Source: a virus
Taxonomy: Duplodnaviria > Heunggongvirae > Uroviricota > Caudoviricetes
IMG/VR virus record: IMGVR_UViG_2531839529_000008
Reading direction: 5' to 3' (one strand)
DNA length: 23,343 bases
Positions 1,300 through 23,343 of this stretch are shown here, piece by piece; position 1 is the stretch's first letter, and the number at the start of each line of letters is the position of its first letter. The notes under the pieces were generated by a model. It was not told the origin of the DNA and did not search any database. It saw only the letters and a list, made by a program, of their open reading frames with translations. Position numbers and translations under genes: made by a program.

Positions 1300-1418
1300 A
1301 TGAAATAGAAAAATGAATCCGTTGAAGCCTGCTTTTTTATACTAAGTTGGCATTATAAAAAAGCATTGCTTATCAATTTGTTGCAACGAACAGGTCACTA
1401 TCAGTCAAAATAAAATCA
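1300..1418. other. attL: attL (BOP') prophage-host junction: core GCTTTTTTATACTAA at 1331-1345 followed by the lambda P' arm
   Basis: Exact lambda att core read at 1331-1345; downstream AT-rich arm (gttggcattataaaaaagcattgcttatcaatttgttgcaacgaacaggtcactatcagtcaaaataaa) matches the remembered lambda P' arm; int lies immediately inside. Confidence 0.9.
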
Positions 1419-2489
1419 TTATTTGATTTCAATTTTGTCCCACTCCCTGCCTCTGTCATCACGATACTGTGATGCCATGGTGTCCGACTTATGCCCGAGA
1501 AGATGTTGAGCAAACTTATCGCTTATCTGCTTCTCATAGAGTCTTGCAGACAAACTGCGCAACTCGTGAAAGGTAGGCGGATCCCCTTCGAAGGAAAGAC
1601 CTGATGCTTTTCGTGCGCGCATAAAATACCTTGATACTGTGCCGGATGAAAGCGGTTCGCGACGAGTAGATGCAATTATGGTTTCTCCGCCAAGAATCTC
1701 TTTGCATTTATCAAGTGTTTCCTTCATTGATATTCCGAGAGCATCAACATGCAATACTGTTGGGATGGCAATTTTTACGCCTGTTTTGCTTTGCTCGACA
1801 TAAAGATATCCATCTACGATATCAGACCACTTCATTTCGCATAAATCACCAACTCGTTGCCCGGTAACAACAGCCAGTTCCATTGCAAGTCTGAGCCAAC
1901 ATGGTGATGATTCTGCTGCTTGATAAATTTTCAGGTATTCGTCAGCCGTAAGTCTTGATCTCCTTACCTCTGATTTTGCTGCGCGAGTGGCAGCGACAGG
2001 GTTTGTTGTTATATGGCCTTCAGCTATTGCCTCTCGGAATGCATCGCTCAGTGTTGATCTGATTAACTTGGCTGACGCCGCCTTGCCCTCGTCTATGTAT
2101 CCATTGAGCATTGCCGCAATTTCTTTTGTGGTGATGTCTTCAAGTGGAGCATCAGGCAGACCCCTCCTTATTGCTTTAATTTTGCTCATGTAATTTATGA
2201 GTGTCTTCTGCTTGATTCCTCTGCTGGCCAGGATTTTTTCGTAGCGATCAAGCCATGAATGTAACGTAACGGAATTATCACTGTTGATTCTCGCTGTCAG
2301 AGGCTTGTGTTTGTGTCCTGAAAATAACTCAATGTTGGCCTGTATAGCTTCAGTGATTGCGATTCGCCTGTCTCTGCCTAATCCAAACTCTTTACCCGTC
2401 CTTGGGTCCCTGTAGCAGTAATATCCATTGTTTCTTATATAAAGGTTAGGGGGTAAATCCCGGCGCTCATGACTTCGCCTTCTTCCCAT
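1419..2489 (-). CDS. int: Tyrosine integrase, lambda Int type
   Basis: 356-aa ORF next to attL; translation matches remembered lambda Int, including the C-terminal catalytic region (HELRSL, HLLGH, Y in SQYRDD). Confidence 0.95.
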   Translation of the reverse strand: MGRRRSHERRDLPPNLYIRNNGYYCYRDPRTGKEFGLGRDRRIAITEAIQANIELFSGHKHKPLTARINSDNSVTLHSWLDRYEKILASRGIKQKTLINYMSKIKAIRRGLPDAPLEDITTKEIAAMLNGYIDEGKAASAKLIRSTLSDAFREAIAEGHITTNPVAATRAAKSEVRRSRLTADEYLKIYQAAESSPCWLRLAMELAVVTGQRVGDLCEMKWSDIVDGYLYVEQSKTGVKIAIPTVLHVDALGISMKETLDKCKEILGGETIIASTRREPLSSGTVSRYFMRARKASGLSFEGDPPTFHELRSLSARLYEKQISDKFAQHLLGHKSDTMASQYRDDRGREWDKIEIK

Positions 2490-2685
2490 TTCTGATCCTC
2501 TTCAAAAGGCTACCTGTTACTGGTCGATTTAAGTCAACCTTTACCGCTGATTCGTGGAACAGATACTCTCTTCCATCCTTAACCGGAGGAGGGAATATCC
2601 TGCACTCGCGTACCCATCGACGAACTGTTTCAAGGCTTCTTGGGCGTCGCTGGCGTGCGTTCCACTCCTGAAGTGTCAAGTACAT
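2467..2685 (-). CDS. xis: Excisionase, lambda Xis type
   Basis: 72-aa ORF whose 3' end overlaps the int start, as in lambda; translation MYLTLQEWNARQRRPRSLETVRRWVRE recognised as Xis. Confidence 0.93.
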   Translation of the reverse strand: MYLTLQEWNARQRRPRSLETVRRWVRECRIFPPPVKDGREYLFHESAVKVDLNRPVTGSLLKRIRNGKKAKS

Positions 2686-2724
2686 CGCAAAGTCTCCGCA
2701 ATTACACGCAAGAAAAAACCGCCA

Positions 2725-2892
2725 TCAGGCGGCTTGGTGTTCTTTCAGTTCTTCAATTCGAATATTGGTTACGTCTGCATGTGCTATCTGCGCCCATATC
2801 ATCCAGTGGTTATAACAGTCGTTGATGTTCTCTGCTTCGATAACCCTGTTGAATGGCTCTCCATTCCATTCACCTGTGACTCGGAAGTGCAT
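2725..2892 (-). CDS. Small hypothetical protein (55 aa), at the position of the lambda 55-codon ORF just upstream of xis
   Basis: Hand translation of the minus strand: MHFRVTGEWNGEPFNRVIEAENINDCYNHWMIWAQIAHADVTNIRIEELKEHQAA; below the 60-aa track cutoff. Confidence 0.45.
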   Translation of the reverse strand: MHFRVTGEWNGEPFNRVIEAENINDCYNHWMIWAQIAHADVTNIRIEELKEHQAA

Positions 2893-2975
2893 TTATCATC
2901 TCCATAAAACAAAACTCGCCGTAGCGAGTTCAGATATAATTTCCACCAAAGGCAGTAGTTGCTTGATGCTAAGAA

Positions 2976-3404
2976 TTATTCAATATCTATTCCTGTAATA
3001 TCTTTTATCTTTTTCCTTGCAAAGCCTTTTGCTAGTGATTTTGAAACACTCATAAGTGTACTAATTCCCTCATCCTTAAAGTTTGTTTTTATAGCTTGCC
3101 AGACATCCTTTTGACGTAAGTCAGCAATAAAATCATGCCCTCTTGCTGTCAACCTCAGTGGTACTTCGATCCAACTATATCCAACACCTTCCCCTAACGC
3201 TTTGGACAATATATGACCGAACCCAGGTTTTCCATCAACCCTGACTATTAATTCGTAGTCACATAATAATCGCATATGGAAAATAAAATCTTGGTCATAT
3301 CTATTAAAGCCATTATCCTCTAGTTCACTAAGCATCGTGTCAGGGCCACGAGTTTTTTCGAATGCGATAAGTAGATCTTTTAGATATTGCTGGTCTAATT
3401 TCAT
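2976..3404 (-). CDS. Hypothetical protein (142 aa), AT-rich accessory gene in the ea region
   Basis: Track ORF; GGAGG Shine-Dalgarno about 6 nt upstream of the ATG at 3404; function not recognised. Confidence 0.6.
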   Translation of the reverse strand: MKLDQQYLKDLLIAFEKTRGPDTMLSELEDNGFNRYDQDFIFHMRLLCDYELIVRVDGKPGFGHILSKALGEGVGYSWIEVPLRLTARGHDFIADLRQKDVWQAIKTNFKDEGISTLMSVSKSLAKGFARKKIKDITGIDIE

Positions 3405-3432
3405 TGCCGCCTCCGTGACATGTCACAGAGAT

Positions 3433-3771
3433 TTATATCATTAATTTTGTTTCGTGCCAGCCTTTGGTCACCCAGCATTGTGAGTCACCATTACACGGGC
3501 ATGAATTAACAGGAACTCTCTCGCCGCACTTACCGCACCGTTTTCTGCTGATCGATTTTATACGCCAGCGCACACGTGCATCATCCTGGCGGCTCAGTAA
3601 CGCGATGTACTCACCAAACTCGCAAGGCGCACGCCTGAAGCGACGCGTGGCACAGTTACGCTCCAGCATTTCAATTTCCTGAGCATCAAGTACAAGCTCC
3701 AGCTTACGCATACCGGATGATGCTTGCTTGGCTCTCTGATCGGCTTTGTGCTCTGTTGCTGATTTAGCCAT
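3433..3771 (-). CDS. Hypothetical Cys-rich putative zinc-binding protein (112 aa; alternative start at 3711 gives 92 aa)
   Basis: Track ORF; C-terminal cluster CGKCGERVPVNSCPCNGDSQC; AGGA upstream of the ATG at 3771; only 28 nt upstream of the 2976-3404 gene, suggesting one operon. Confidence 0.55.
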   Translation of the reverse strand: MAKSATEHKADQRAKQASSGMRKLELVLDAQEIEMLERNCATRRFRRAPCEFGEYIALLSRQDDARVRWRIKSISRKRCGKCGERVPVNSCPCNGDSQCWVTKGWHETKLMI

Positions 3772-3965
3772 TCTGCTTTTCCTGCATCAGGAGAAAGACA
3801 ATCATGGCGGCGCGGATACTTCCGGTATCTTTTTACGCGATATTCCCCTTCAATGGCACATACAAGAAGAGAGCCATCAACAGGAGTGATTGAGGAATCG
3901 ACAACCAGCAACGCTTAATTATCTATAGTGTCGTATTTGCTTCATAAAATATGGCGAATAACACA

Positions 3966-3998
3966 AAGCCCGCAGCAGCTCATTGTGCGGGCTTTTCT
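3966..3998. terminator. GC-rich hairpin (gcccgca...tgcgggc) with a T-rich tract on the plus side; candidate terminator bounding the 4065-4679 gene
   Basis: Inverted repeat read directly at 3968-3992 followed by ttttctta; direction ambiguous. Confidence 0.35.
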
Positions 3999-4064
3999 TA
4001 TACCTACTTCCTAGAGATAATTCTATGGAGGCATTAAATCAATACTGTCATTGGTAATATCATA

Positions 4065-4679
4065 TTATCTAAAAGTCTTTCCACTTTTAACATCTAGGTA
4101 TATTCTGTTCGACAACGTCATTCCTCCGCAATATGTGAAATAGATGTTTTCACCCTTATTGCTTGATGCCATCCACCCTCCGATTTCCTTAAAATCGCTT
4201 TCCGTGCAGACCCCTTCATTTATTAACTTCCTAGCTGCCGAAGAAAACTCTTTTTTGTATATACGGTAGTCATCAGATCCTTTGATTAAAGTATCATCTC
4301 CGCTCGCATTTTCAGCAGGATCTGATGGCCTTTCACTGCTAAGATCACTAAGTTTAACCCATTCTGAAAACTTGCCATTAACGATTCCATTTTTTCTTGT
4401 GCAGGATTTATTACCTTCTTTAATATATTCGCTTTCCCCTCCAACACATGAGGCTGAATATGGCTCAGTTATACGAACCCATTCACCTTTTTTTTCTAGA
4501 AAATCTACGCCTTCCCTGAAAAATAGTTTCCCAGCCACTCCACATTTACTTGAAGGGCAGGTATGTCTTTCCGTTCGATCAACAACAACCCATAGTTTTG
4601 ATTCATTTTTTGCCATTGCCGATGGTATTTGAGATGAGACAATTAACGTAAGCCCTAAAATTAGTATTGATTTTTTCAT
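4065..4679 (-). CDS. Secreted or periplasmic Cys-rich protein of unknown function (204 aa)
   Basis: Track ORF; N-terminal signal peptide MKKSILILGLTLIVSSQIPSAMA with AMA-K cleavage motif; six Cys in the mature part; AAGGA Shine-Dalgarno 8 nt upstream; AT-rich. Confidence 0.65.
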   Translation of the reverse strand: MKKSILILGLTLIVSSQIPSAMAKNESKLWVVVDRTERHTCPSSKCGVAGKLFFREGVDFLEKKGEWVRITEPYSASCVGGESEYIKEGNKSCTRKNGIVNGKFSEWVKLSDLSSERPSDPAENASGDDTLIKGSDDYRIYKKEFSSAARKLINEGVCTESDFKEIGGWMASSNKGENIYFTYCGGMTLSNRIYLDVKSGKTFR

Positions 4680-4977
4680 TGTAATTTCCTTTTACTTTTT
4701 ACAAAGCGTTTAATCATGGCTGATTATCTCTAAGTGTAGTAACAGCCTTGTGCGAAACATGTTACCAAATCGCCATTTCAGTGTATCCGCAGTTAGGCTG
4801 CCACTTCAAGGATTCCTAATTACATGGTACGTAAGCGTAAAATCCCGTTGGTTGGCGGGTAATAACTCTGATCAAATCTCCCTTGTCTTTTGCTCTTACG
4901 TATGCAGCTCTTGTGTATTCAACCCAGGCCTCCAGTTCAGCAATACGCTTACTTCCATCCGAGATAACACCTTCTAC

Positions 4978-5229
4978 TCACGCTGCTCGTTGAGTTTTGA
5001 TTTTTGCTGTCTCCAGCTCAACACGCAGTTTCCCCACCGTTAGCGCAATATCCTCGTTCTCCTGGTCGCGGCGTTTGATGTATTGCTGGTTTCTTTCCCG
5101 TTCATCCAGCAGTGTCAGCACAATCGATGGTGTTACCAGCTCATGGAAAAGGTCCGCGTCAAATCCCCAGTTGTCAGGCATTGCCTGCTCTGCCGCTTCA
5201 CGCAGTGCCTGAGAGTGAATTACGCTCAC
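4978..5229 (-). CDS. Hypothetical protein (83 aa) at the lambda ea22 position, ending at an in-frame TGA that is followed by 53 further sense codons
   Basis: Track ORF; start overlaps the stop of the upstream TraR-like gene (ATGA); hand translation beyond the TGA (4819-4977) stays open and protein-like. Confidence 0.5.
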   Translation of the reverse strand: MSVIHSQALREAAEQAMPDNWGFDADLFHELVTPSIVLTLLDERERNQQYIKRRDQENEDIALTVGKLRVELETAKIKTQRAA

Positions 5230-5447
5230 TTCGAACCTCTCTGTTTACTGATAAGCTCCAGATCTTCCTGGCAACTTGCACAAGTCCGACAACCCTGAAC
5301 GGCCAGGCGTCTTAGCTCATCTATGGGATCGCCACACTCACAACAATGAGTGGCAGATACAGCCTGGTGGTTCAGGCGGCGCATTTTTATTGCTGTGTTG
5401 CGCTGTAATTCTTCAATTTCTGATGCTGAATCAATGATGTCTGCCAT
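5226..5447 (-). CDS. TraR/DksA-family C4 zinc-finger protein (73 aa), lambda Orf73-like
   Basis: Track ORF; CxxC-x17-CxxC motif (CECGDP...CRTCASC); same size and position as the lambda TraR-like orf73. Confidence 0.7.
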   Translation of the reverse strand: MADIIDSASEIEELQRNTAIKMRRLNHQAVSATHCCECGDPIDELRRLAVQGCRTCASCQEDLELISKQRGSK

Positions 5448-5545
5448 CTTCCATTAATCCCTGAATTGTTGGTTAATACGCTTGGGGGTAAATGCGAGCA
5501 ATAAAAAAGGAGCCTGTAGCTCCCTGATAATTTTGCTTTTCATGT

Positions 5546-5827
5546 TCATCGTTCCTTAAAGACGCCGTTTAACATGCCGATTGCCAGGCTTAAATGAGTC
5601 GGTGTGAATCCCATCAGCGTTACCGTTTCGCGGTGCTTCTTCAGTACGCTACGGCAAATGTCATCGACGTTTTTATCCGGAAACTGCTGTCTGGCTTTTT
5701 TGATTTCAGAATTAGCCTGACGGGCAATGCTGCGAAGGGCGTTTTCTTGCTGAGGTGTCATTGAACAAGCCCCATGTCGGCAAGCATAAGCACACAGAAT
5801 ATGAAGCCCGCTGCCAGAAAAATGCAT
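5546..5827 (-). CDS. Hypothetical early protein at the lambda orf61 position (alternative start at 5761 gives 71 aa)
   Basis: Track ORF in the pL operon upstream of exo; start codon uncertain. Confidence 0.45.
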   Translation of the reverse strand: MHFSGSGLHILCAYACRHGACSMTPQQENALRSIARQANSEIKKARQQFPDKNVDDICRSVLKKHRETVTLMGFTPTHLSLAIGMLNGVFKER

Positions 5828-5837
5828 TCAGTGGTTG

Positions 5838-6029
5838 TCATACCTGGTCTCTCTCATCTGCTTCTGCTTTCGCCACCATCATTTCCAGCTTTTGTGAAAG
5901 GGATGCGGCTAACGTATGAAATTCTTCGTCTGTTTCTACTGGTATTGGCACAAACCTGACTCCAATTTGAGCGAGGCTATGTGCCATCTCGATACACGTT
6001 CTTAACTCAACAGGAGATGCTTTGTGCAT
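5838..6029 (-). CDS. Hypothetical early protein (63 aa) at the lambda orf63 position
   Basis: Track ORF; size and position relative to exo match lambda orf63. Confidence 0.5.
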   Translation of the reverse strand: MHKASPVELRTCIEMAHSLAQIGVRFVPIPVETDEEFHTLAASLSQKLEMMVAKAEADERDQV

Positions 6030-6190
6030 ACAGCCCCCCGTTTATTATTTATCTCCTCAGCCAGCCGCTGTGCTTTCAGGGGATTTCTGATAACAGAAAG
6101 GCCGGGAAATACCCAGCCTCGCTTTGTAACGGAGTAGACGAAAGTGATCGCACCTACCCGGATATTATCGTGAGGATGCTTCATCGCCAT
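6002..6190 (-). CDS. Hypothetical early protein (62 aa) at the lambda orf60a position
   Basis: Track ORF immediately upstream of and overlapping the exo start. Confidence 0.5.
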
Positions 6191-6861
6191 TGCTCCCCAA
6201 ATACAAAACCAATTTCAGCCAGTGCCTCGTCCATTTTTTCGATGAACTCCGGCACCATCTCGTCAAAACTCGCCATGTACTTTTCATCCCGCTCAACCAC
6301 GACATAATGCAGGCCTTCACGCTTCATACGCGGGTCATAGTTGGCAAAGTACCAGGCATCTTTTCGCGTCACCCACATGCTGTACTGCACCTGGGCCATG
6401 TAAGCCGACTTTATGGCCTCGAAACCACCGAGCCGGAACTTCATGAAATCCCGGGAGGTAAACGGGCATTTCAGCTCAAGGCCATTGCCGTCACTGCATA
6501 AACCATCGGGAGAGCAGGCGGTACGCATACTTTCGTCGCGATAGATGATCGGGGATTCAGTAACATTCACGCCGGAAGTGAATTCAAACAGAGTTCTGGC
6601 GTCGTTCTCGTACTGTTTTCCCCATGCCAGCGCCTTAGCATTAACTTCCGGAGCCACACCGGTGCAAACCTCAGCCAGCAGGGTGTGGAAGTAGGACATT
6701 TTCATGTCAGGCCACTTTTTTCCGGAGCGGGGTTTTGCTATCACATTGTGAACTTCTGAAGCGGTGATGACGCCGAGCCGTAATTTGTGCCACGCATCAT
6801 CCCCCTGTTCGACAGCTCTCACGTCGATTCCGGTACGCTGCAGGATAATGTCCGGTGTCAT
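6181..6861 (-). CDS. exo: Lambda-type exonuclease (Red alpha)
   Basis: 226-aa ORF; translation recognised as lambda Exo; overlaps bet as in lambda. Confidence 0.95.
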
Positions 6862-7643
6862 GCAGCCACCTTCTGCTCAGTGGCTTTCTGTTTCAGGAAT
6901 CCAAGAGCTTTCACTGCTTCGGCCTGTGTCAGTTCTGACGATGCGCGAATGTCGCGGCGAAATATCTGGGAACAGAGCGGCAATAAGTCGTCATCCCATG
7001 TTTTATCCAGGGCAATCAGCAGAGTGTTAATCTCCTGCATGGTTTCATCGTTAACCGGAGTGATGTCGCGTTCCGGCTGACGTTCTGCAGTGTATGCGGT
7101 ATTTTCGACAATGCGCTCGGCTTCATCCTTGTCATAGATACCAGCAAATCCGAAGGCGAGACGGGCACACTGAATCATGGCTTTATGCCGTAACATCCGT
7201 TTGGGATGCGACTGCCACGGCCCCGTGATTTCTCTGCCTTCGCGGGTTTTGAATGGTTCGCGGCGGCATTCATCCATCCACTCGGTAACGCAGATCGGAT
7301 GATTGCGGTCTTTGCGGTAAATCCGGCATGTGCAGGATTCATTGTCCTGCTCAAAGTCCATGCCATCAAACTGCTGGTTTTCATTGATGATACGGGACCA
7401 GCCATCAACGCCCACCACCGGAACGATGCCGTTCTGCTTGTCAGGGAAGGCGTAAATTTCTTTCGTCCACGGATTAAGGCCGTACTGGTTGGCGACGATC
7501 AGCAATGCGATGAACTGCGCATCGCTGGCATCACCTTTAAATGCCGTCTGGCGAAGAGTGGTGATCAGTTCCTGTGGGTCGACAGAATCCATGCCGACGC
7601 GTTCAGCCAGCTTCCCAGCCAGCGTTGCGAGTGCTGTACTCAT
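6858..7643 (-). CDS. bet: Red beta single-strand annealing protein
   Basis: 261-aa ORF; translation recognised as lambda Bet. Confidence 0.95.
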
Positions 7644-7648
7644 CCGTT

Positions 7649-8065
7649 TTATACCTCTGAATCAATATCAACCTGGTGGTGAGCAATGGTTTCAACCATG
7701 TACCGGATGTGTTCTGCCATGCGCTCCTGAAACTCAACATCGTCATCAAACGCACGGGTAATGGCTTTTTTGCTGGCCCCGTGGCGTTGTAAATGATCGA
7801 TGCAGAGTGATTCAAACAGGTGCTGGGGCAGACCTTTTTCCATGTCGTCTGCCAGTTCTGCCTCTTTCTCTTCACGGGCGATCTGCTGGTAGTGACGCGT
7901 CCAGCTCTGAGCCTCAAGACGATCCTGAATGTAATAAGCGTTCATGGCTGAACTCCTGAAATAGCTGTGAAAATATCGCCCGCGAAATGCCGGGCTGATT
8001 AGGAAAACAGGAAAGGAGGTTAGTGAATGCTTTTGCTTGATCTCAGTTTCAGTATTAATATCCAT
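7649..8065 (-). CDS. gam: Gam, RecBCD inhibitor
   Basis: 138-aa ORF; translation recognised as lambda Gam. Confidence 0.9.
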
Positions 8066-8737: not shown

Positions 8738-8755
8738 CTATTCATATCCTCACAG

Positions 8756-10144: not shown

Positions 10145-10150
10145 ATTTTT

Positions 10151-16398: not shown

Positions 16399-16417
16399 AA
16401 GAGGGGGTTATTAAGGC

Positions 16418-16780
16418 GTGAATACCTACAGCATCACATTACCCTGGCCTCCGAGCAATAATCGCTATTACCGCCATAATCGCGGGCGCACGCACGTCAG
16501 CGCAGAGGGGCAGGCATACCGCGATAACGTCGCCCGAATCATTAAAAACGCAATGCTGGATATCGGCCTGGCTATGCCTGTGAAAATCCGCATTGAGTGC
16601 CACATGCCGGATCGCCGTCGCCGTGACCTGGATAATCTGCAAAAAGCCGCTTTTGACGCACTCACTAAAGCAGGTTTCTGGCTGGATGATGCTCAGGTCG
16701 TTGATTACCGCGTTGTGAAGATGCCTGTTACCAAAGGTGGGAGGCTGGAACTGACCATCACCGAAATGGGGAATGAATGA
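16418..16780 (+). CDS. rusA: RusA Holliday-junction resolvase
   Basis: 120-aa ORF recognised as E. coli DLP12 RusA. Confidence 0.93.
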
Positions 16781-16917
16781 TGTTTGAGTTTAATATGGCA
16801 GAACTTCTTCGCCACCGCTGGGGGCGTCTGCGCTTATATCGTTTCCCCGGTTCTGTTTTGACCGATTACCGAATACTGAAGAATTACGCCAAAACACTGA
16901 CAGGAGCAGGAGTATGA
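16777..16917 (+). CDS. ylcG: YlcG-like small protein (46 aa)
   Basis: Hand translation [46 protein letters not shown]; start overlaps the rusA stop. Confidence 0.5.
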
Positions 16918-17002: not shown

Positions 17003-17380
17003 ATGCGTGATATTCAGATGGTTCTTGAGCGTTGGGGAGCGTGGGCGGCTAATAATCATGAAGATGTGACCTGGTCGTCCATTGCCGCCGGTTTTAAGGG
17101 ATTAATTCCTTCAAAAGTAAAATCTCGCCCACAATGTTGTGACGATGACGCGATGATCATTTGCGGGTGCATGGCCCGTCTGAAAAAGAACAACAGCGAT
17201 TTGCATGATTTATTGGTGGACTATTATGTCGGCGGCATGACTTTTATGGCGCTTGCACGTAAGCATGGGCGATCTGATTGTTGGGTTGGCAGGATGCTTC
17301 AGAAAGCTGAGGGCGTAGTGGAGGGTATGCTGATGGTGTTGGATCTCCGATTGGAGATGGATGCTGATTGTTCGAAATAA
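17003..17380 (+). CDS. Q: Late-gene antiterminator Q, phage 82 / DLP12 QuuD type
   Basis: Track ORF 16988-17380 with likely start [18 protein letters not shown]; recognised as QuuD-like. Confidence 0.85.
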
Positions 17381-17479
17381 TTAAAGGAAAAGTTGCTGTC
17401 TGATTGTCATTAGTCTAACATTTTAAATGTTGGAATCACAACGTAGTTATTATCATATAACAGCTTGTTTCCTGATTTA
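17381..17479 (+). promoter_or_regulatory. Inferred PR'/qut late promoter region between Q and the downstream hairpin
   Basis: Position only, by analogy with lambdoid late regulation; promoter hexamers not confidently assigned. Confidence 0.3.
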
Positions 17480-17508
17480 GCCAGCCTCCCCAAAGGCTGG
17501 TTTTTTTC
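17480..17508 (+). terminator. Rho-independent terminator (tR'-like) downstream of Q
   Basis: Hairpin ccagcc-tccccaaa-ggctgg followed by TTTTTTT (17501-17507). Confidence 0.7.
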
Positions 17509-17535
17509 TAATAAGTATTATTTCGGGTAGGGATT

Positions 17536-18060
17536 TTATTGTTTAACCCATAATAATTCATTGACATTGAATCCCAACTTTTGAGCGGTTCGCACATAGT
17601 CTGCTTTTACTTTATCTGGAATAGTTGGGGTCCTTGCCAGAATCCATAGGTATTCTCTGTTCGGACCACTGACAAGAGCATACTTATACTCATCATCCAG
17701 TTTGATTACATTATAGCCACCATAGAAGGGGCCAAAAAACGAAACCTTCAATGCTGCAGTTTTAGTATCTCCAGTAAAGTATGCTTTACCTTCGCTCTCG
17801 CTCCATTTATTTTTCGTTGGATCGTATCCACGGTTAAGTACACGAATCCCTCCGTCGTTCCGTTTTCCATAAGTAGCGCTGACCTGTTCCAGACCACGTT
17901 CGAACCGGTTCTCGAGGCGAGCTATTTCATACCATTTTCCGAGGTAGCGGTTGGCGTCAAAATTTGTAATCGGCTGCACACCTTTAGGTGGTGTCGGGGC
18001 CTTACATGCTATAAGAGTGAAAGAGAGTGCAATGCCAGTCAACACAGGCCATAACTTCAT
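17536..18060 (-). CDS. Blc-like bacterial lipocalin, outer-membrane lipoprotein (174 aa)
   Basis: Track ORF; lipobox LIAC; lipocalin motifs (NFDANRYLGKWYEIAR, TAALKVSFFGPFYGGYNVI) recognised as a paralogue of E. coli Blc; transcribed opposite to late genes. Confidence 0.85.
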   Translation of the reverse strand: MKLWPVLTGIALSFTLIACKAPTPPKGVQPITNFDANRYLGKWYEIARLENRFERGLEQVSATYGKRNDGGIRVLNRGYDPTKNKWSESEGKAYFTGDTKTAALKVSFFGPFYGGYNVIKLDDEYKYALVSGPNREYLWILARTPTIPDKVKADYVRTAQKLGFNVNELLWVKQ

Positions 18061-18252
18061 AATAAATCCTGTACTTTTGATAGTTGAGAGTAAGTATGAA
18101 AGATAGATGATTACGACCGATCACTTAAAGAACTTTCATACTATATTAGGAATAGTCCATAACAGAAAAATTGTCAGTGATGACGCCAGAAAGGCAATTT
18201 ATTCCGTGCACTACACAGTTTATGTGTTAATGAATTAGTCAAGGGGGAGAAT

Positions 18253-19212
18253 ATGATAAAAAAACCTGTGATTGGAATCAGCGGTTGTTTGGCCGGTTCT
18301 GCTGTTCGTTTTGATGGTGGTCACAAAAGAGCTGACTTTTTAATGGACAAATTAGTGGAATGGGTAACATTCAGACCAGTATGTCCGGAAATGGCTATAG
18401 GGCTGCCAGTTCCGCGTCCTGCTCTACGTCTTGTGCGCTCGATGCAAGGAAATATACGGATGTGTTTCAGCCACGACCAGAATGAGGATGTGACAGAGAG
18501 AATGACAGAGTTTAGTCGTTCTTATATGGACAAATTAAAGGATGTATCGGGGTTTGTGGTTTGTGCTAAATCTCCCAGCTGTGGCATGGAGCGCGTGCGT
18601 GTCTATGATGAAAATGGTAATCGAGGTCGTAAAGATGGAGTGGGACTATTTACGAGCACTTTGATGGAAAAGTTTTCCTGGCTACCGGTTGAAGAGGATG
18701 GGCGATTACATGATCCAGTGCTTCGTGAGAATTTTGTTGAAAGAGTTTTTGCTTTGCATGAGCTCAATCACCTTTACAAGGAGAAATTATCAAGAAGAGA
18801 GTTATTAGCTTTTCATAGTCGTTATAAGCTTCAGTTGTTGGCGCATAGTCAGGCAGGCTATAAAGATATGGGACCATTTGTGGCTGCAATACACGAGTGG
18901 GCGGACCTTGAATCATACTTTGAGGTGTATCGTGATAAGCTGATGGCGATTCTCAGAAAACCTGCATCACGTAAAAATCACACGAATGTGCTGATGCATA
19001 TACAGGGGTATTTTAGTAACTACTTAAGTACACGCCAGCGTAAAGAGTTGAGCGAGGTTATACTTAACTATCGTTCTGGCACATTACCTCTTCTTGCGCC
19101 GTTGACTCTGCTGAAGCATTATCTGGGTGAGTATCCTAATGATTACTTGCTTACACAGAATTACTTCGATCCCTATCCGGACGAACTGGCTCTAAGACTG
19201 ATGGTAAATTAA
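18253..19212 (+). CDS. DUF523 (TudS-like Fe-S desulfidase) fused to DUF1722, 319 aa; RudS/YbgA-like
   Basis: Track ORF with strong Shine-Dalgarno (AAGGGGGAGAATATG); conserved Cys residues in the N-terminal half (GISGCLAG, VCPEM, SPSCGME); domain call from memory. Confidence 0.7.
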   Translation: MIKKPVIGISGCLAGSAVRFDGGHKRADFLMDKLVEWVTFRPVCPEMAIGLPVPRPALRLVRSMQGNIRMCFSHDQNEDVTERMTEFSRSYMDKLKDVSGFVVCAKSPSCGMERVRVYDENGNRGRKDGVGLFTSTLMEKFSWLPVEEDGRLHDPVLRENFVERVFALHELNHLYKEKLSRRELLAFHSRYKLQLLAHSQAGYKDMGPFVAAIHEWADLESYFEVYRDKLMAILRKPASRKNHTNVLMHIQGYFSNYLSTRQRKELSEVILNYRSGTLPLLAPLTLLKHYLGEYPNDYLLTQNYFDPYPDELALRLMVN

Positions 19213-19563
19213 TTGTATGCGATATCATCCAAAAGGATGAGTTCCTGCATGCAGGATATTTACAATCGTAAAAACTACACTATGATACCCAGAGTGTCAG
19301 TTTGTATAAAAACTCTGTTTACGCTGAAGAAACAATTGAGATGCAACTTAAAGTTGGTAAACATGCCAGTCAAAATATATAATATTATGATTCCACGCAG
19401 CTATATATAATATAACAGATTGGTTTAATAATTTGTCTTTGTGAGTTAAATACATAATTTTATACTTGTGATGTAATGAAATTTTCCTTATTGTTGAACT
19501 GGCGAATATTGATTTTCCACCTATACTTACCTGGTGTAACCCCAATGATATCAGGTGGATAAT

Positions 19564-20294
19564 ATGCCATACATATGTTCTATCATTTTGGTGTTGAATT
19601 CGTTTGATGTCCGAATTGGTAAAGAAGATATTTTGTTTAAAAAAGGAAATGCTGTTCTCATTGATTACAATTTAAAAGATTTTTTTCATCAAATATAGAT
19701 CATGTAATGATCGTAGATGTTGAAGAAAAAACAGTTAATGATTTCTTTAAAAGCAACACACTCTCACCTTTTTCTGTAAGAAGGTTTTATCCGGCATACT
19801 TGATGGTGGAATGTGAAGATTTTTCATTGTTAAAGAACTTGATTGCATGCTTGAATTGTGATGGCAGAACTGTGGATTTTGTTAGAAATCAAATATCACT
19901 TGCATGTCTTGCTATCTTATCTTCAGAGAAAATAGTGCAAAGTTTTTTATTTGGATGTCTTAATAGTTTAGGAAGTAAAGTTAAGGCTATTATTCACACG
20001 GATATATCTGCAGCATGGAGACTTTGTGATATATCTTCAAGACTGTATCTGAGTGAAAGTCTGTTAAAAAGAAAATTAAAGCACGAAGGCTTATCATTTA
20101 GTAAGTTAATTCTTGAAGAGCGAATGGTGATGGCGGAAAGCTTATTAAGCTACAATTTATATTCTGTTGGAAAAGTTGCTGAGATATGCGGTTATGAAAA
20201 CACGTCATATTTTGTAAGTGTTTTCAGAAGGTATTTTGGTGTTCCTCCCCATCAATATTCATCAAGATTTTTTTTAGAAAAAGACATGATGTAA
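19564..20294 (+). pseudogene. AppY-like AraC-family transcriptional regulator, disrupted: 44-codon N-terminal fragment (19564-19698) then a 195-aa C-terminal ORF (19707-20294) in another frame
   Basis: C-terminal AraC-type HTH (GYENTSYFVSVFRRYFGVPPHQY); N-terminal fragment MPYICSIILVLNSFDVRIGKEDILFKKGNAVLI resembles the AppY N-terminus; stops in all three frames at 19696-19712; very AT-rich. Confidence 0.6.
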
Positions 20295-20481: not shown

Positions 20482-20697
20482 ATGAAATCCATGGATAAGT
20501 TAACAACGGGCATTGCCTACGGCACCTCCGCAGGCAGTGCTGGCTACTGGTTTTTACAGCTGCTCGATAAAGTCACGCCCTCACAGTGGGCAGCAATAGG
20601 TGTGCTGGGTAGCTTGGTATTTGGCCTGCTGACGTACCTGACAAACCTTTATTTCAAGATTAAAGAAGATAAGCGCAAGGCTGCGAGAGGTGAATAA
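20482..20697 (+). CDS. essD: Class II holin (pinholin), phage 21 S / DLP12 EssD type, with dual-start motif MKSM
   Basis: 71-aa track ORF recognised as S21-like; Met1-Lys-Ser-Met4 dual start. Confidence 0.9.
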
Positions 20698-21194
20698 TGC
20701 CTCCATCATTACGAAAAGCCGTTGCTGCTGCTATTGGTGGCGGAGCAATTGCTATAGCATCAGTGTTAATTACTGGCCCAAGTGGTAACGATGGTCTGGA
20801 AGGTGTCAGCTACATACCATACAAAGATATTGTTGGTGTATGGACTGTATGTCACGGGCATACAGGAAAAGACATCATACTCGGTAAAACGTATACCAAA
20901 GCAGAATGCAAAACACTCTTGAATAAAGACCTTGCCACGGTCGCCAGACAAATTAACCCGTACATCAAAGTCGATATACCGGAAACAACGCGCGGCGCTC
21001 TTTACTCGTTCGTCTATAACGTGGGCGCAGGCAATTTCAGAACATCTACTCTTCTTCGCAAAATAAACCAGGGCGATATCAAGGGCGCATGTGACCAGCT
21101 ACGTCGCTGGGCATACGCTGGCGGTAAGCAATGGAAAGGCCTGATGACTCGTCGTGAGATTGAGCGTGAGGTCTGTTTGTGGGGGCAACAATGA
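20697..21194 (+). CDS. rrrD: SAR endolysin (phage lysozyme), R21 / RrrD type
   Basis: 165-aa track ORF; N-terminal Gly/Ala-rich signal-arrest-release segment ([18 protein letters not shown]); start overlaps the holin stop. Confidence 0.9.
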
Positions 21195-21658
21195 GCAGGG
21201 TAACCGCGATTATCTCCGCTCTGGTTATCTGCATCATCGTCTGCCTGTCATGGGCTGTTAATCATTACCGTGATAATGCAATCGCCTACAAAGAACAGCG
21301 CGATAACAAGGCCAGTGAACTGGAGAAGGCGAACGCCACCATTACTGACATGCAGCAGCGCCAGCGTGATGCTGATGCACTCGATGATAAATACACGAAG
21401 GAGTTAGCTGATGCGAAAGCTGAAAATGATGCTCTTCGGCGCAAGCTTGATAATGGTGGTCGGGTGCTCGTCAAAGGAAAATGCCCTGTGCCATCCTCAG
21501 CCGAAACCTCCAGCGCCTCCGGCATGGGCAATGATGCCACCGTCGAACTCTCTCCAGTTGCTGGACGAAACGTTCTCGGTATCCGGGACGGAATTATCCG
21601 CGACCAAACAGCACTGAGAACGCTTCAGGAATACATCAGGACGCAATGCCTTCGATGA
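21191..21658 (+). CDS. Rz: Rz i-spanin
   Basis: Internal start [12 protein letters not shown] of track ORF 21179-21658; N-terminal TM segment then coiled-coil region. Confidence 0.85.
21411..21617 (+). CDS. Rz1: Rz1 o-spanin lipoprotein embedded in the +1 frame of Rz
   Basis: Track ORF inside Rz; lipobox VVGC; proline-rich mature part; exact start among the N-terminal Met codons uncertain. Confidence 0.7.
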
Positions 21659-21939: not shown

Positions 21940-22104
21940 TTAAAGGATAAAGGTATTCAAGCCTGACACATCATGCGCTGTATCGTCGCCGTATTCCCGT
22001 ATTAACAGAGACCGTAGCCCGACGGGGAACTCCTTCTGCGCGAGTGTGCGGGAATAATCAAAAACGATGCACACCGGGGTTACCGGGTACACATATTTCA
22101 TCAT
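21940..22104 (-). CDS. Possible small ORF (54 aa) in the region where lambda carries bor
   Basis: Hand translation MMKYVYPVTPVCIVFDYSRTLAQKEFPVGLRSLLIREYGDDTAHDVSGLNTFIL; no clear Shine-Dalgarno; not Bor-like. Confidence 0.2.
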   Translation of the reverse strand: MMKYVYPVTPVCIVFDYSRTLAQKEFPVGLRSLLIREYGDDTAHDVSGLNTFIL

Positions 22105-22149
22105 GCCAGCGAGTCCGGTTCTGGCACGGAAGAAACCGGACGTTATGAT

Positions 22150-22560
22150 TTAGTGCGGAAATATTTGTGTAGTGTTCTGAATGTTCTCAGTAAAGAGTAA
22201 TGAATTATCAAAGGTATAGTAATACCTTTTGTTTTCGTGGATATTTGTAATCCATCTGAAAACCCCTGCTGTAGCAAGATTTTTCCTGTATTCGTAAAAT
22301 GATAACTCTCCTGATTTGAATCCTTTTAAGGTGGCTTCTATAAGGCATTTATTTTTTGAAAATCTTACATTTACAACCTTACCCTGTCCTTTTATTAAAA
22401 CCGTATTATCGTTTTCAAGAACAAGATGAATATTCTCTGTAGCTAAATAGTAAATGTAATGTGAGACATTGTGACGTTTTAGTTCAGAATAAAACCAGTG
22501 ATAGTTTAAATTATTTCGCACTTTATCGAATATTTGTTTAAAAATGGCAACCTGAGCCAT
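22150..22560 (-). CDS. ybcV: YbcV-like protein (DUF1398, annotated in DLP12 as putative envelope protein)
   Basis: Internal start [11 protein letters not shown] of track ORF 22150-22575; recognised as DLP12 YbcV-like. Confidence 0.7.
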
Positions 22561-22616
22561 TGTAGTACCTTCCATGTGATATGAGGGGCGTAGTCTGCAC
22601 GATTATCTAAATTGCT

Positions 22617-22850
22617 TCAATCTGGTCTGATCTGTTTTCTGAGCAATTCAGTAATGTCACTCTTTTCTTTGTTTGCTTCAGGAGAAACTCTTTTTTCTGA
22701 GCACAGTCTCCGGCGGCAGGCTTCAATGACCCAGGCTGAGAAATTCCCGGACCCTTTTTGATCAAGAGCGATGTTAATTTGTTCAATCATTTGGTTAGGA
22801 AAGCGGATGTTGCGGATTGTTGTTCTGCGGGTTCTGTTCTTCGTTGACAT
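22617..22850 (-). CDS. Hypothetical small basic protein (77 aa), possible ribbon-helix-helix DNA-binding protein
   Basis: Track ORF upstream of the ybcV-like gene on the same strand; fold assignment is a guess from composition. Confidence 0.4.
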   Translation of the reverse strand: MSTKNRTRRTTIRNIRFPNQMIEQINIALDQKGSGNFSAWVIEACRRRLCSEKRVSPEANKEKSDITELLRKQIRPD

Positions 22851-23019
22851 GAGGTTGTCCCGTATTTAGTGTCGCTGATTTGTATTGTCTGAAGTTGTTT
22901 TTACGTTAAGTTGATGCAGATCAATTAATATGATACCTGCGTCATAATTGATTATTTGACGTGGTTTGATGGCGTAGATGCACGTTGTGACATGCAGATG
23001 ATAATTATTATCATTTTGC

Positions 23020-23238
23020 GGGTCCTTTCCGGCGATCCGACCGGTTACGGGGCGGCGACCTCGCGGGTTTTCGCTATTTATGAAAAATTTCCGGTTTAAG
23101 GCGTTTCCGTTCTTCTTCGTCATAACTTAATGTTTTTATTTAAAATACCCTCTGAAAAGAAAGGAAACGACAGGTGCTGAAAGCGAGCTTTTTGGCCTCT
23201 GTCGTTTCCTTTCTCTGTTTTTGTCCGTGGAATGAACA
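23020..23238 (+). other. cos: cos packaging site region: cosN cohesive-end sequence GGGCGGCGACCT at 23049-23060, cosB downstream
   Basis: Sequence from 23049 to the window end matches the remembered start of the lambda genome almost base for base. Confidence 0.9.
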
Positions 23239-23343
23239 ATGGAAGTCAACAAAAAGCAGCTGGCTGACATTTTCGGTGCGAGTATCCGTACCATTCAGAA
23301 CTGGCAGGAACAGGGAATGCCCGTTCTGCGAGGCGGTGGCAAG
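23239..23343 (+). CDS. nu1: Terminase small subunit Nu1, N-terminal 35 codons (truncated by window end)
   Basis: MEVNKKQLADIFGASIRTIQNWQEQGMPVLRGGGK recognised as the lambda Nu1 N-terminus. Confidence 0.9.
   Translation, partial: MEVNKKQLADIFGASIRTIQNWQEQGMPVLRGGGK

What the first reader, a model, noticed from the sequence alone, without database searches (positions are those of the whole stretch)
1331..23343. Mosaic of at least five module types with accessory cargo at every classical hotspot
The prophage combines lambda-type integration, recombination, replication and cos, P22-type immunity, phage 82/DLP12-type nin-Q, phage 21-type lysis, and AT-rich cargo at the ea region, the Q-S gap and the Rz-cos gap, plus an IS911. 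Junctions fall at gene boundaries (xis/ea, ea10/sieB, N/c2, c1/O, ninB/dam, Q/cargo), consistent with modular exchange.
Basis: partly seen in the sequence, partly recalled or inferred. Interest (0 to 1): 0.4.

Follow-up and report, generated by a model that had tools for sequence, protein, structure and literature searches.

The report
Ordinary mosaic lambda-like prophage, early half
The window holds the left half of a lambda-family prophage sitting at the classical lambda attachment site of E. coli, stitched from gene blocks shared with lambda, P22, phage 21 and DLP12 plus a few AT-rich passenger genes and one insertion sequence, which is real but textbook phage mosaicism.

Summary
The mosaic is real. 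Bases 1331-23343 run from the exact lambda attL core (1331-1345) to lambda-type cos (23049|23050) and the start of Nu1. No classical reference covers more than 47% of it. Lambda, P22, 21 and DLP12 together cover 61% at 85% or higher local identity, in blocks with sharp edges.

- The repressor, cro and operators belong to the shared P22/21 immunity group and are closer to phage 21. N and both nut sites are a third type.
- Q belongs to the Q21 family (PF06530, QuuD-like), not the Q82 family.
- The insertion sequence is an IS911-like element that RefSeq names ISEc52. It interrupts a dam-type methyltransferase gene.
- About half the breakpoints lie inside genes (ea22, N, repressor, ybcO, Q, Rz, ylcI), not at gene boundaries.

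The three cargo regions are AT-rich (38-41% GC, against 45% for the prophage).

Nothing is new. Every block has a 97-100% match in an isolated phage, and 21 complete E. coli genomes hold most of the window in one collinear match, the best at 99-100% identity. Interest is low.

The parts
1..1284 (-). Host gene ybhC, the flank on the gal side of the lambda attachment site
   Evidence: RefSeq annotation of 100% identical genomes
1331..1345 (.). attL core, identical to the 15-bp lambda att core
   Evidence: Exact match to GCTTTTTTATACTAA. Lambda homology starts here.
1419..2892 (-). int (1419-2489), xis (2467-2685) and an orf55-like gene (2725-2892), lambda type
   Evidence: 99%, 99% and 98% aa identity to lambda. 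98.9% nt identity over 1331-2940.
2941..4930 (-). ea-region cargo, 41% GC. It holds a DUF2513 protein (2976-3404), a 112-aa putative regulator (3433-3771), a UmuD-like gene remnant (3804-3914) and a 204-aa protein with a hydrophobic N-terminus that looks like a signal peptide (4065-4679).
   Evidence: No match in lambda, P22, 21 or DLP12. 100% identical in phage Chlobot. Pfam and PHROG hits. No PADLOC hit. The signal-peptide reading is from the sequence by eye only.
4931..8888 (-). Lambda/21-type early-left block. It holds an ea22 N-terminal remnant (4930-5181), a TraR/DksA zinc-finger gene (5226-5447), homologues of orf61, orf63 and orf60a, exo (6181-6861), bet (6858-7643), gam (7649-7945), kil (8020-8163), cIII (8132-8296) and ea10 (8369-8737).
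   Evidence: 97.3% nt to lambda and 96.9% to phage 21. 94-100% aa. Rfam Lambda_thermo at 8251-8309.
8998..9579 (+). sieB superinfection-exclusion gene, P22-like. The lambda ral region is deleted just upstream.
   Evidence: 85% aa and 86.8% nt to P22. 100% nt to Lambda_ev110.
9596..10017 (-). N antiterminator (9596-9868) with nutL (boxB 9977-9992, boxA 10007-10017), a third specificity type
   Evidence: Pfam N_peptide. 98-99% nt to phage N7. 56% aa to N21 over 64 of 90 aa and 36% aa to P22 gp24. The boxB is identical to the nutR boxB.
10181..11097 (.). Immunity core of the P22/21 group: repressor (10181-10831, minus strand), operators OR3 to OR1 (10832-10897) and cro (10912-11097, plus strand)
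   Evidence: Repressor 99% aa to 21 cI and 93% to P22 C2. Cro 97% and 95%. The OR region differs from P22 and from phage 21 at no more than 4 of 85 positions. HTH_3 and Peptidase_S24 domains.
11104..11484 (+). nutR (boxA 11104-11114, boxB 11131-11146) and the cII/c1 activator gene (11206-11484)
   Evidence: Sequence read. c1 is 89% aa to P22 C1, 55% to lambda cII and 42% to phage 21.
11494..13917 (+). Lambda/21-type replication block: O (11519-12418) with four ori iterons at 11867-11953, P (12415-13116), ren (13113-13403) and ninB (13477-13917)
   Evidence: 98.0% nt to lambda and 97.9% to phage 21. 98-100% aa. Iterons.
13914..15694 (+). dam-type N6-adenine methyltransferase gene (PF05869), split after codon 157 of 175 by the IS. 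Fragments at 13914-14386 and 15637-15694.
   Evidence: An intact 175-aa gene is present in strain 025542-1. Breakpoints.
14387..15636 (-). IS3-family insertion sequence, IS911-like and named ISEc52 in RefSeq. 1250 bp with a 3-bp target duplication TAC. orfA at 15564-15262, A6G slippery motif at 15307-15313, orfB frame open over 15319-14417.
   Evidence: 100% identical copies are annotated ISEc52. 90.7-98.8% identical to the K-12 IS911A and IS911B fragments. Architecture.
15691..16917 (+). Right part of the nin region: ninE (15691-15867), ninX (15870-16211, partly P22-like), a ybcO/DUF1364 3' remnant (16332-16421), rusA (16418-16780) and ylcG (16777-16917), the last two DLP12 type
   Evidence: rusA and ylcG are 100% aa identical to DLP12. 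The DLP12 match is 99.5% nt over 16343-17205.
17003..17380 (+). Q antiterminator of the Q21 family, QuuD-like. It is chimeric relative to QuuD: the N-terminal 67 codons or so are almost identical, then nt identity drops to 74% after about 17205.
   Evidence: PF06530 E = 2e-51. Family assignment from PMC9388147. PDB Q21 match E = 2e-8. Breakpoint.
17393..17512 (+). Candidate late promoter (TTGCTG, 17 nt, TAACAT) followed by an intrinsic terminator-like hairpin with a T-run (17479-17512). This is inferred.
   Evidence: Terminator scan. Sequence. Conserved in Lambda_ev110 and unrelated to the DLP12 sequence at the same position.
17536..20294 (.). Q-S gap cargo, 38% GC. It holds a Blc-type lipocalin lipoprotein gene (17536-18060, minus strand), a DUF523/TudS-DUF1722 (YbgA-family) fusion gene (18253-19212, plus strand), and a YdeO/AppY-like AraC regulator gene (19564-20294, plus strand) frameshifted by a 1-bp deletion near 19679.
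   Evidence: Pfam, NCBIfam and PDB hits. 99% nt in phage IdasGreatGrand, 89% in the Lambda_ev110 group, and only 12 phage records in all. Frameshift.
20482..21658 (+). Lysis cassette of phage 21 / DLP12 type: pinholin S (20482-20697), SAR endolysin R (20697-21194), Rz (21191-21658) and an embedded Rz1 candidate (21411-21617). The Rz C-terminal half and Rz1 are of a different type from 21438 onward.
   Evidence: S is 99% aa to EssD and 87% to S21. R is 98% to RrrD and 97% to R21. PF04971 hit. The Rz1 candidate has a lipobox. 21400-22700 is 99.8% identical in phage Kati.
21646..22850 (.). Rz-cos gap: a 50-aa hydrophobic ORF (21646-21798, plus strand), a DUF1398 YbcV-like gene (22150-22560, minus strand) and a YlcI/YnfO-like gene (22617-22850, minus strand). 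The bor gene is absent.
   Evidence: Pfam and PHROG hits. 76-78% aa to the lambda and DLP12 homologues. GC 38% over 21974-22687.
22688..23343 (+). Lambda-type cos region (nick at 23049|23050, cohesive end 23050-23061) and the 5' end of Nu1/nohD (23239-23343)
   Evidence: The junction of lambda positions 48502 and 1 aligns here. GGGCGGCGACCT. The first 35 aa of Nu1 are 100% identical to lambda and 54% to phage 21.

Best explanation
This is the attL-to-Nu1 half of a lambda-family temperate prophage, integrated by a lambda-type integrase at the classical lambda attB between ybhC and ybhB.

Inferred life cycle, from homology:
- A LexA-like repressor of the P22/21 group binds OL and OR and keeps the prophage silent. 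RecA-stimulated self-cleavage would lift repression.
- N, with its own boxB at nutL and nutR, antiterminates early transcription.
- O binds four iterons inside its own gene and P loads DnaB.
- A QuuD-like Q of the Q21 family loads at a late promoter just downstream of Q. It lets RNA polymerase read through a terminator and about 3 kb of cargo into a phage 21-type pinholin, SAR endolysin and spanin cassette.
- Lambda-type terminase cuts at cos.

Origin of the mosaic:
- The mosaic is the product of repeated recombination within the lambdoid gene pool.
- Some exchanges sit in short conserved stretches shared by different phages. Examples are the 33-bp c1|O linker, ninB, ninE and the sieB promoter.
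- Other exchanges are breakpoints inside genes.
- Sets that must work together have stayed together. These are N with both nut sites, the repressor with its operators and cro, the Rz C-terminal half with Rz1, and Nu1 with cos.
- AT-rich passenger genes (morons) sit in the ea region, the Q-S gap and the Rz-cos gap.
- This particular copy has since picked up an IS911-like element in its dam gene. It also carries a frameshift in the AraC-type cargo gene.
For: Gene order and identities:
- The full lambdoid gene order is present from attL to Nu1.
- The att core and the cos end are exact lambda matches.

Block structure:
- The identity plot shows blocks with sharp steps.
- No phage record covers 80% or more of the window. 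The classical references jointly cover 61%.

Functional sets that stay together:
- The OR operators are almost identical in the window, P22 and phage 21.
- nutL and nutR carry the same boxB, which differs from the boxB of P22 and of phage 21.
- Four ori iterons lie inside O.
- Q is PF06530, the Q21 family.
- The holin matches the P21 holin family PF04971, and R is 97% identical to R21.

Naturally circulating and not an artefact:
- 21 complete E. coli genomes hold at least 80% of the window in one collinear match. The 15 listed are 99.2-100% identical and begin in ybhC.
- One of these sibling genomes has a full set of lambda-type head and tail genes up to ybhB.
- Every block also occurs at 97-100% identity in isolated, plaque-forming phages: Chlobot, N7, Lambda_ev110, IdasGreatGrand and Kati.
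Against: - Donors and the direction of exchange cannot be inferred from a handful of references, so 'modules' are defined relative to the references chosen.
- A phage 82 genome was not available in the collection, so the rusA link to phage 82 rests on the literature (PMC4118853).
- Whether this copy is still inducible is unknown. The IS lies in the pR operon upstream of Q, in the opposite orientation, and might be polar on Q.
- The late promoter and the Q binding element are assigned by position and consensus only.
Confidence: 0.93

Rival explanations
1. It is a decaying, cryptic prophage remnant like DLP12 rather than a functional phage. On this view the mosaic partly reflects decay and the piling up of insertions in a dead element.
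For: - An IS interrupts dam inside the early-right operon.
- The AraC-type gene is frameshifted.
- Remnants of ea22, a UmuD-like gene and ybcO are present.
- Sibling prophages carry IS3, IS5, ISKpn26, ISKox3 and ISEc22 insertions.
Against: - All essential early, replication, Q and lysis genes are intact and 97-100% identical to those of plaque-forming phages.
- A sibling strain has a complete 47-kb prophage with all head and tail genes.
- The same gene remnants are present in the viable phage Chlobot, which is 100% identical over 1331 to about 6400 and 96-100% from there to about 8800.
- dam is not an essential lambdoid gene (established knowledge).
Confidence: 0.2
2. It is essentially one known phage (lambda, or a named relative) with a few insertions, not a multi-source mosaic.
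For: - Lambda alone aligns to 47% of the prophage bases at 94-100% identity.
- att, int, the red genes, O/P and cos are all lambda-like.
Against: - The immunity region, N, the right part of the nin region, Q, the lysis genes and the cargo have no lambda match or only weak ones.
- The best single phage record covers 59% of the window.
Confidence: 0.03
3. The apparent mosaic is an assembly chimera that joins reads from several prophages in one genome.
For: E. coli genomes have a median of 7 places that match parts of this window, a setting in which short-read assemblies can mis-join.
Against: - 21 complete genomes from different hosts hold at least 80% of the window in one collinear match. The 15 listed are 99.2-100% identical, and the two inspected come from Bangladesh and Malawi.
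- The junction-spanning blocks also occur in sequenced phage genomes.
Confidence: 0.01

Closest known systems
Sibling prophages at ybhC/att-lambda in complete E. coli genomes, for example strain 025542-1 (NZ_CP035832.1) and strain fS58a (NZ_CM176576.1)
   Same: Collinear with the whole window at 99.8-100% identity, with the same integration site and the same blocks and cargo. 21 of 5,426 complete genomes hold 80% or more of the window.
   Different: They lack the IS at 14387-15636. Some carry other IS elements elsewhere, for example an IS3 at window position 21931-21934 in fS58a. The AraC-type gene is intact in fS58a.
Bacteriophage lambda (J02459)
   Same: - att core, int and xis.
- The block from orf61 to ea10, including exo, bet, gam, kil and cIII.
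- O, P, ren, ninB and the ori iterons.
- cos and Nu1.
These are 94-100% identical.
   Different: - Different ea region.
- No ral or rexAB.
- Different N, immunity region, right part of the nin region, Q family (lambda Q is PF03589), holin and endolysin.
- No bor.
Phage 21 (OL657228) and Salmonella phage P22 (NC_002371): the shared 21/P22 immunity group
   Same: - Repressor 99% aa to phage 21 and 93% to P22. Cro 97% and 95%.
- The OR region is almost identical in the window, P22 and phage 21.
- Phage 21 also shares the S and R lysis type, the red genes and the O/P blocks.
- P22 shares sieB, c1 and parts of ninX.
   Different: - Phage 21 integrates at icd with a different integrase (35% aa). It has a different N, cII, Q (32% aa) and cos/Nu1 (54% aa).
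- P22 has different recombination, replication, lysis and packaging genes.
DLP12 cryptic prophage of E. coli K-12
   Same: - rusA and ylcG are 100% aa identical, and the first 67 codons or so of Q are almost identical to quuD.
- essD is 99% and rrrD 98% aa identical.
- The nohD/cos-proximal region is 96.5% nt identical.
   Different: - The C-terminal part of Q and the sequence downstream of Q are different.
- DLP12 has nmpC, not the lipocalin/YbgA/AraC cargo, in its Q-S gap.
- It integrates at argU.
- It is heavily deleted.
Isolated coliphages Chlobot (PP925838), Lambda_ev110/1H12 group (LR597652), IdasGreatGrand (PP925829), Kati (PP925833) and N7 (MH717096)
   Same: Each carries one or more of the 'non-classical' blocks:
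- Chlobot: ea cargo at 100%.
- Lambda_ev110 group: sieB at 100% and the Q-S cargo at 89%.
- IdasGreatGrand: rusA through Q, the cargo and up to the start of the holin gene at 98-99%.
- Kati: Rz C-terminal half through ylcI at 99.8%.
- N7: N and nutL at 98-99% and the nutR region at 97%.

   Different: None is collinear with the whole window. The best single record covers 59%.

Membership tests
Lambdoid temperate phage / prophage at att-lambda | Canonical gene order: int, xis, red genes, kil, cIII, N, repressor, cro, cII, O, P, nin, Q, S, R, Rz, cos, Nu1 | tested here: met
   All are present in this order.
Lambdoid temperate phage / prophage at att-lambda | Lambda att core at the host-phage junction next to ybhC, with a lambda-type Int | tested here: met
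   Exact 15-bp core at 1331-1345. Int is 99% aa identical to lambda Int.
Lambdoid temperate phage / prophage at att-lambda | Lambda-type cos with the 12-nt cohesive end, and a cognate Nu1 | tested here: met
   GGGCGGCGACCT at 23050. The first 35 aa of Nu1 are 100% identical to lambda.
P22/21 immunity group | Repressor and Cro orthologous to P22 C2/Cro and phage 21 cI/Cro | tested here: met
   Repressor 99% aa to phage 21 and 93% to P22. Cro 97% and 95%. P22_Cro Pfam hit.
P22/21 immunity group | Three OR operators of the AnTnAAG-N4-CTTnAnT type, matching P22 and phage 21 | tested here: met
   The OR alignment differs at no more than 4 of 85 positions. Operator-like sites at 10832, 10857 and 10880.
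P22/21 immunity group | Cross-immunity of a lysogen to imm21 and immP22 phages | not testable with these tools
   Needs a plating experiment.
Q82 family antiterminator (Pfam PF06323) | Match to the Q82 family profile | tested here: not met
   The only Pfam hit is PF06530. PF06323 is the Q82 family according to PMC9388147.
Q21 family antiterminator (Pfam PF06530) | Match to the family profile above Pfam's cut-off, and similarity to Q21 | tested here: met
   173 bits against a cut-off of 26. Q21 structures 6p18 and 6jnx match at E = 2e-8. 32% aa identity to Q21.
Q21 family antiterminator (Pfam PF06530) | A cognate Q binding element and pause site in a late promoter directly downstream of Q, followed by a terminator | tested here: inconclusive
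   A promoter-like site (17393-17421) and a terminator-like hairpin (17479-17512) are present. No experimentally defined binding element exists for this Q subtype.
Phage 21-type lysis cassette (pinholin and SAR endolysin) | A class II holin of the S21 family followed by an R21-type lysozyme, then Rz with embedded Rz1 | tested here: met
   PF04971 hit, and S is 87% aa to S21. R is 97% aa to R21. Rz matches PF03245. The Rz1 candidate has a lipobox.
IS911 (IS3 family) | About 1250 bp, 3-bp target duplication, orfA and orfB with an A6G -1 frameshift motif | tested here: met
   1250 bp, TAC duplication, A6G motif at 15307-15313.
IS911 (IS3 family) | Sequence identity high enough to carry the same IS name | tested here: inconclusive
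   RefSeq names the 100% identical copies ISEc52. Identity to the K-12 IS911 fragments is 90.7-98.8% depending on the segment. No full-length IS911 reference was available.
Phage 82-type nin region | Similarity to the phage 82 rusA region | not tested
   No phage 82 genome was found in the collection. The literature says DLP12 ybcN is 97% identical to phage 82 orf151 (PMC4118853). The window lacks ybcN and has lambda ninB instead.

The most novel reading that the evidence does not exclude
The Q-S gap cargo could be a genuine lysogenic-conversion module. It consists of a Blc-type lipocalin lipoprotein, a DUF523(TudS-like)-DUF1722 fusion and a YdeO/AppY-like AraC regulator, and it occurs in only 12 of 50,697 phage records. 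Its function might lie in envelope stress, acid stress or thiolated-nucleobase metabolism. In addition, the chimeric Q (QuuD N-terminus with a replaced C-terminal part) together with the unrelated downstream promoter region could define a new Q specificity within the Q21 family.
Probability: 0.12. Interest if true: 0.3.

Novelty: already known. Interest (0 to 1): 0.1.

Why it matters
It matters little beyond good annotation. The window is a clean worked example of lambdoid mosaicism, a textbook topic for decades (from my own knowledge).

- The prophage lineage is already present in 21 complete E. coli genomes.
- Each block is already present in isolated phages.
- The useful outputs are corrections: Q is of the Q21 family, the immunity core is of the 21/P22 group, N and its nut sites form a separate specificity, and about half the breakpoints are intragenic.
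- The last point fits a model of recombination anywhere followed by selection better than it fits strict exchange at module boundaries.

Tried and rejected
- Phage 82 genome. I guessed neighbouring accessions (OL657225, OL657229, OL657224) and found none, so phage 82 could not be aligned directly.
- tRNA scan. No tRNA genes, unlike phage 21, which has two tRNAs after Q.
- Rfam scan. Only the cIII thermoregulator was found.
- Defence systems. PADLOC gave no hit for any cargo protein or for sieB, so no known defence system can be claimed.
- The 204-aa ea-region protein. The PDB sequence search found nothing, and Pfam and NCBIfam gave no hit.
- 'Uniform identity to one phage' was rejected.
- 'Assembly chimera' was rejected.
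- I did not run the large protein-database or structure-prediction searches. The answer did not depend on them.

Full report
**What the window is**

Bases 1-1284 encode the host gene ybhC on the minus strand. The exact 15-bp lambda att core GCTTTTTTATACTAA lies at 1331-1345, and lambda homology starts at that base. The sequence then runs through a complete lambdoid early region. It ends at a lambda-type cos site, where the junction of lambda positions 48502 and 1 aligns to 23049|23050 and the cohesive end GGGCGGCGACCT starts at 23050. The first 35 codons of Nu1 follow.

A megablast against complete E. coli genomes finds 21 genomes of 5,426 that hold 80% or more of the window in one collinear match. 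The 15 listed begin in ybhC and are 99.2-100% identical. In one of them (strain 025542-1) the prophage continues with a full lambda-type head and tail gene set as far as ybhB. The window is therefore the attL-to-Nu1 half of a prophage of about 47 kb.

I aligned the window to lambda (J02459), P22 (NC_002371), phage 21 (OL657228) and the K-12 DLP12 region. I also aligned it to three isolated phages found by search (N7, Chlobot, Lambda_ev110). I then tabulated identity in 200-bp bins next to GC content. The pattern is blocks of 94-100% identity with abrupt edges.

- Lambda: 1331-2940, 4931-8888, 11494-13917 and 22688-23343.
- P22: 8893-9658 (sieB, 86.8%) and 10000-11526 (82%).
- Phage 21: 9677-11127 (86%) and 20451-21438 (88.6%). 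Phage 21 also matches the red and O/P blocks as well as lambda does (96.9% and 97.9%).
- DLP12: 16332-17362, 20471-21438 and 22688-23343.

Lambda alone covers 45% of the prophage bases (IS excluded) at 85% or higher local identity. The four classical references together cover 61%, and adding the three isolated phages raises this to 92%. No phage record covers 80% of the window, and the best covers 59%. The refuting condition, uniform identity to one reference phage, is not met. The mosaic is confirmed.

**Cargo and base composition**

| Region | Coordinates | GC |
|---|---|---|
| ea cargo | 2941-4930 | 41.1% |
| Q-S cargo | 17536-20450 | 38.1% (as low as 28% locally) |
| DUF1398/YlcI block | 21974-22687 | 38.2% |
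| Prophage overall | | 45.4% |
| ybhC | | 53.1% |

AT-richness is not unique to cargo. sieB is 40.6% GC and the immunity core is 43.5%.

- **ea cargo.** It encodes a DUF2513 protein, a 112-aa putative regulator, a UmuD-like remnant and a 204-aa protein of unknown function whose hydrophobic N-terminus looks like a signal peptide. It is 100% identical in phage Chlobot.
- **Q-S cargo.** It encodes three genes:
  - a Blc-type lipocalin lipoprotein (NCBIfam 316 bits against a cut-off of 267);
  - a DUF523(TudS-like)-DUF1722 fusion of the YbgA family;
  - a YdeO/AppY-like AraC regulator, frameshifted by a 1-bp deletion near 19679.
  - The block is 99% identical in phage IdasGreatGrand and 89% in the Lambda_ev110 group, and it is rare, occurring in 12 phage records.
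- **Known families.** All cargo proteins fall in existing PHROG families. None matches a PADLOC defence model.
- **Overstatement.** 'Every classical hotspot' is too strong. There are no rex, ral or bor equivalents, and the b region lies outside the window.

**Correction 1: immunity**

The repressor (10181-10831) is 99% identical in protein sequence to phage 21 cI and 93% to P22 C2. Cro is 97% to phage 21 and 95% to P22. The OR region with its three operators is almost identical in the window, P22 and phage 21. This fits the shared P22/21 operator specificity that I recall from the older literature.

The region is itself a patchwork:

- sieB is P22-like (85% aa).
- c1 is P22-like (89% aa, against 42% for phage 21).
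- The repressor switches at about 10500. The half upstream of that point, which encodes the N-terminal DNA-binding domain, is close to phage 21 (97% nt). The C-terminal half differs from phage 21 almost only at third codon positions.
- N (9596-9868) resembles neither reference well (56% aa to N21 over 64 residues, 36% to P22 gp24) but is 98-99% identical in nucleotides to phage N7.

N comes with a matched pair of nut sites. The same boxB, CCCGCCGAAATGCGGG, lies at nutL (9977-9992, minus strand) and at nutR (11131-11146, plus strand). It differs from the P22 and phage 21 boxB sequences. So an N/nut specificity set brackets a repressor, operator and cro core of different ancestry, and each set is internally coherent.

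**Correction 2: Q**

rusA and ylcG are 100% identical in protein to DLP12. The DLP12 alignment has 4 mismatches between 16343 and 17205, then drops abruptly to 74% identity inside Q at about codon 68 of 125. The sequence downstream of Q is unrelated to that of DLP12.

Q matches only Pfam PF06530 (E = 2e-51). Its only solved relatives are Q21 structures. The literature assigns PF06530 to the Q21 family and PF06323 to the Q82 family (PMC9388147). 'Phage 82-type Q' is therefore wrong, and 'DLP12/QuuD-like, Q21 family' is right.

No phage 82 genome was available to test. The link between DLP12 and the phage 82 nin region rests on the literature (PMC4118853).

Downstream of Q there is a promoter-like site and a terminator-like hairpin with a T-run at 17479-17512. 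This looks like the late promoter and terminator, but that is inferred.

**Correction 3: the insertion sequence**

The IS occupies exactly 14387-15636. It is 1250 bp with a 3-bp duplication (TAC), and it is absent from an otherwise 100% identical prophage. It has orfA, an A6G slippery motif and an orfB in the -1 frame.

RefSeq calls the 100% identical copies ISEc52. It is 90.7-98.8% identical to the fragmented IS911 copies of K-12, so it is IS911-like.

It splits a dam-type methyltransferase gene (PF05869) after codon 157 of 175. It lies in the opposite orientation to rightward early transcription. Any polar effect on Q is a possibility that I could not test.

**Correction 4: junctions**

Breakpoints at or between gene ends:

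| Position | Location |
|---|---|
| 2940 | between the orf55-like gene and DUF2513, one gene beyond xis |
| 8888-8893 | upstream of ea10, where the ral region is deleted |
| 11127 | where phage 21 homology ends, just after cro |
| 11494 | between c1 and O, with 33 bp shared by lambda and P22 |
| 13917 | the ninB stop |
| about 15690 | between dam and ninE |
| 20451-20471 | upstream of S |

Breakpoints inside genes:

| Position | Gene |
|---|---|
| 4931 | ea22, leaving an N-terminal remnant |
| about 9677 | 3' end of N |
| about 10500 | repressor |
| 16332 | ybcO, leaving a remnant |
| about 17205 | Q |
| 21438 | Rz, at the point where Rz1 starts |
| 22637-22688 | 3' end of ylcI |

At 21438 the Rz C-terminal half and Rz1 are replaced together. 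Roughly half the breakpoints are therefore intragenic. Several boundary junctions lie in short stretches conserved between different phages (the c1|O linker, ninB, ninE, the sieB promoter). That is what homologous exchange would need.

- Int is 99% and Xis 99% identical to lambda.
- Exo, Bet, Gam, Kil, CIII and Ea10 are 97-100% identical.
- O, P, Ren and NinB are 98-100% identical.
- Four ori iterons lie at 11867-11953.
- S is 99% identical to EssD and 87% to S21, and it matches the P21 holin family. R is 98% identical to RrrD and 97% to R21.
- An Rz1 candidate with a lipobox lies at 21411-21617.

**Verdict**

The interpretation of modular exchange is supported in outline but needed four corrections.

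Every block has a 97-100% match in an isolated phage, and the whole arrangement recurs in 21 complete genomes. It is already known.

The least ordinary items are the rare Q-S cargo trio and the chimeric Q with its own downstream region. Neither has evidence of a new mechanism. I score interest at 0.1.

Noticed in passing
window 14387-15636: The IS911-like element (ISEc52) interrupts the phage dam-type methyltransferase gene inside the early-right operon, upstream of Q and in the opposite orientation. None of the best-matching sibling prophages has an IS at this site. Several carry other IS elements elsewhere (IS3, IS5, ISKpn26, ISKox3, ISEc22).
   Followed up: partly
window 9977-10017 (-) and 11104-11146 (+): nutL and nutR carry an identical boxB (CCCGCCGAAATGCGGG) that differs from the boxB of P22 and of phage 21. 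It matches the distinct N gene (98-99% nt to phage N7). This N/nut specificity set brackets a 21/P22-type repressor, operator and cro core.
   Followed up: yes
window 10181-10831 (-): The repressor is 99% identical in protein to phage 21 cI, yet its C-terminal half differs from phage 21 at nearly every third codon position (83-90% nt). This points to old divergence under strong purifying selection. The phage 21 record annotates cI as 190 aa, but the alignment runs over 216 aa up to position 34905 of that record, so the annotated start may be too far downstream.
   Followed up: partly
window 17003-17535: Q is chimeric relative to DLP12 QuuD. There are 4 mismatches between 16343 and 17205, then identity falls to 74% up to the end of the gene. 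The downstream 155 bp (promoter-like site and terminator-like hairpin at 17479-17512) is unrelated to DLP12 but conserved in the Lambda_ev110 group.
   Followed up: partly
window 19564-20294: The YdeO/AppY-like AraC regulator gene in the Q-S cargo has a 1-bp deletion near 19679 relative to strain fS58a, which frameshifts it. Strain 025542-1 has the same deletion.
   Followed up: yes
window 3780-3829 and 16146-16195: A 50-bp inverted repeat (46 of 50 identical) links the ea-region cargo to the 3' end of ninX, 12.3 kb away. It looks like a ninX-end fragment carried into the ea region.
   Followed up: partly
window 21411-21658: The Rz C-terminal half and the embedded Rz1 candidate (lipobox VVGC, proline-rich) change type together at 21438. 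The Rz N-terminal half stays lambda/21/DLP12-like (86-88% nt). This fits the two spanin partners being exchanged as a pair.
   Followed up: partly
window 8251-8309 (-): The only Rfam match in the window is the lambda cIII thermoregulator element (88.5 bits). There are no tRNA genes after Q, unlike phage 21.
   Followed up: yes
window 4065-4679 (-): A 204-aa cysteine-containing protein with a hydrophobic N-terminus that looks like a signal peptide sits in the ea region. It has no Pfam, NCBIfam, PADLOC or PDB match and falls only in PHROG 8310, of unknown function.
   Followed up: partly
L012 7013-8344 (NZ_CP035832.1, outside the window): The sibling prophage carries a sensor-domain diguanylate cyclase gene between the tail-fibre genes and attR, next to ybhB. 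This is a further cargo gene at the b-region hotspot.
   Followed up: no
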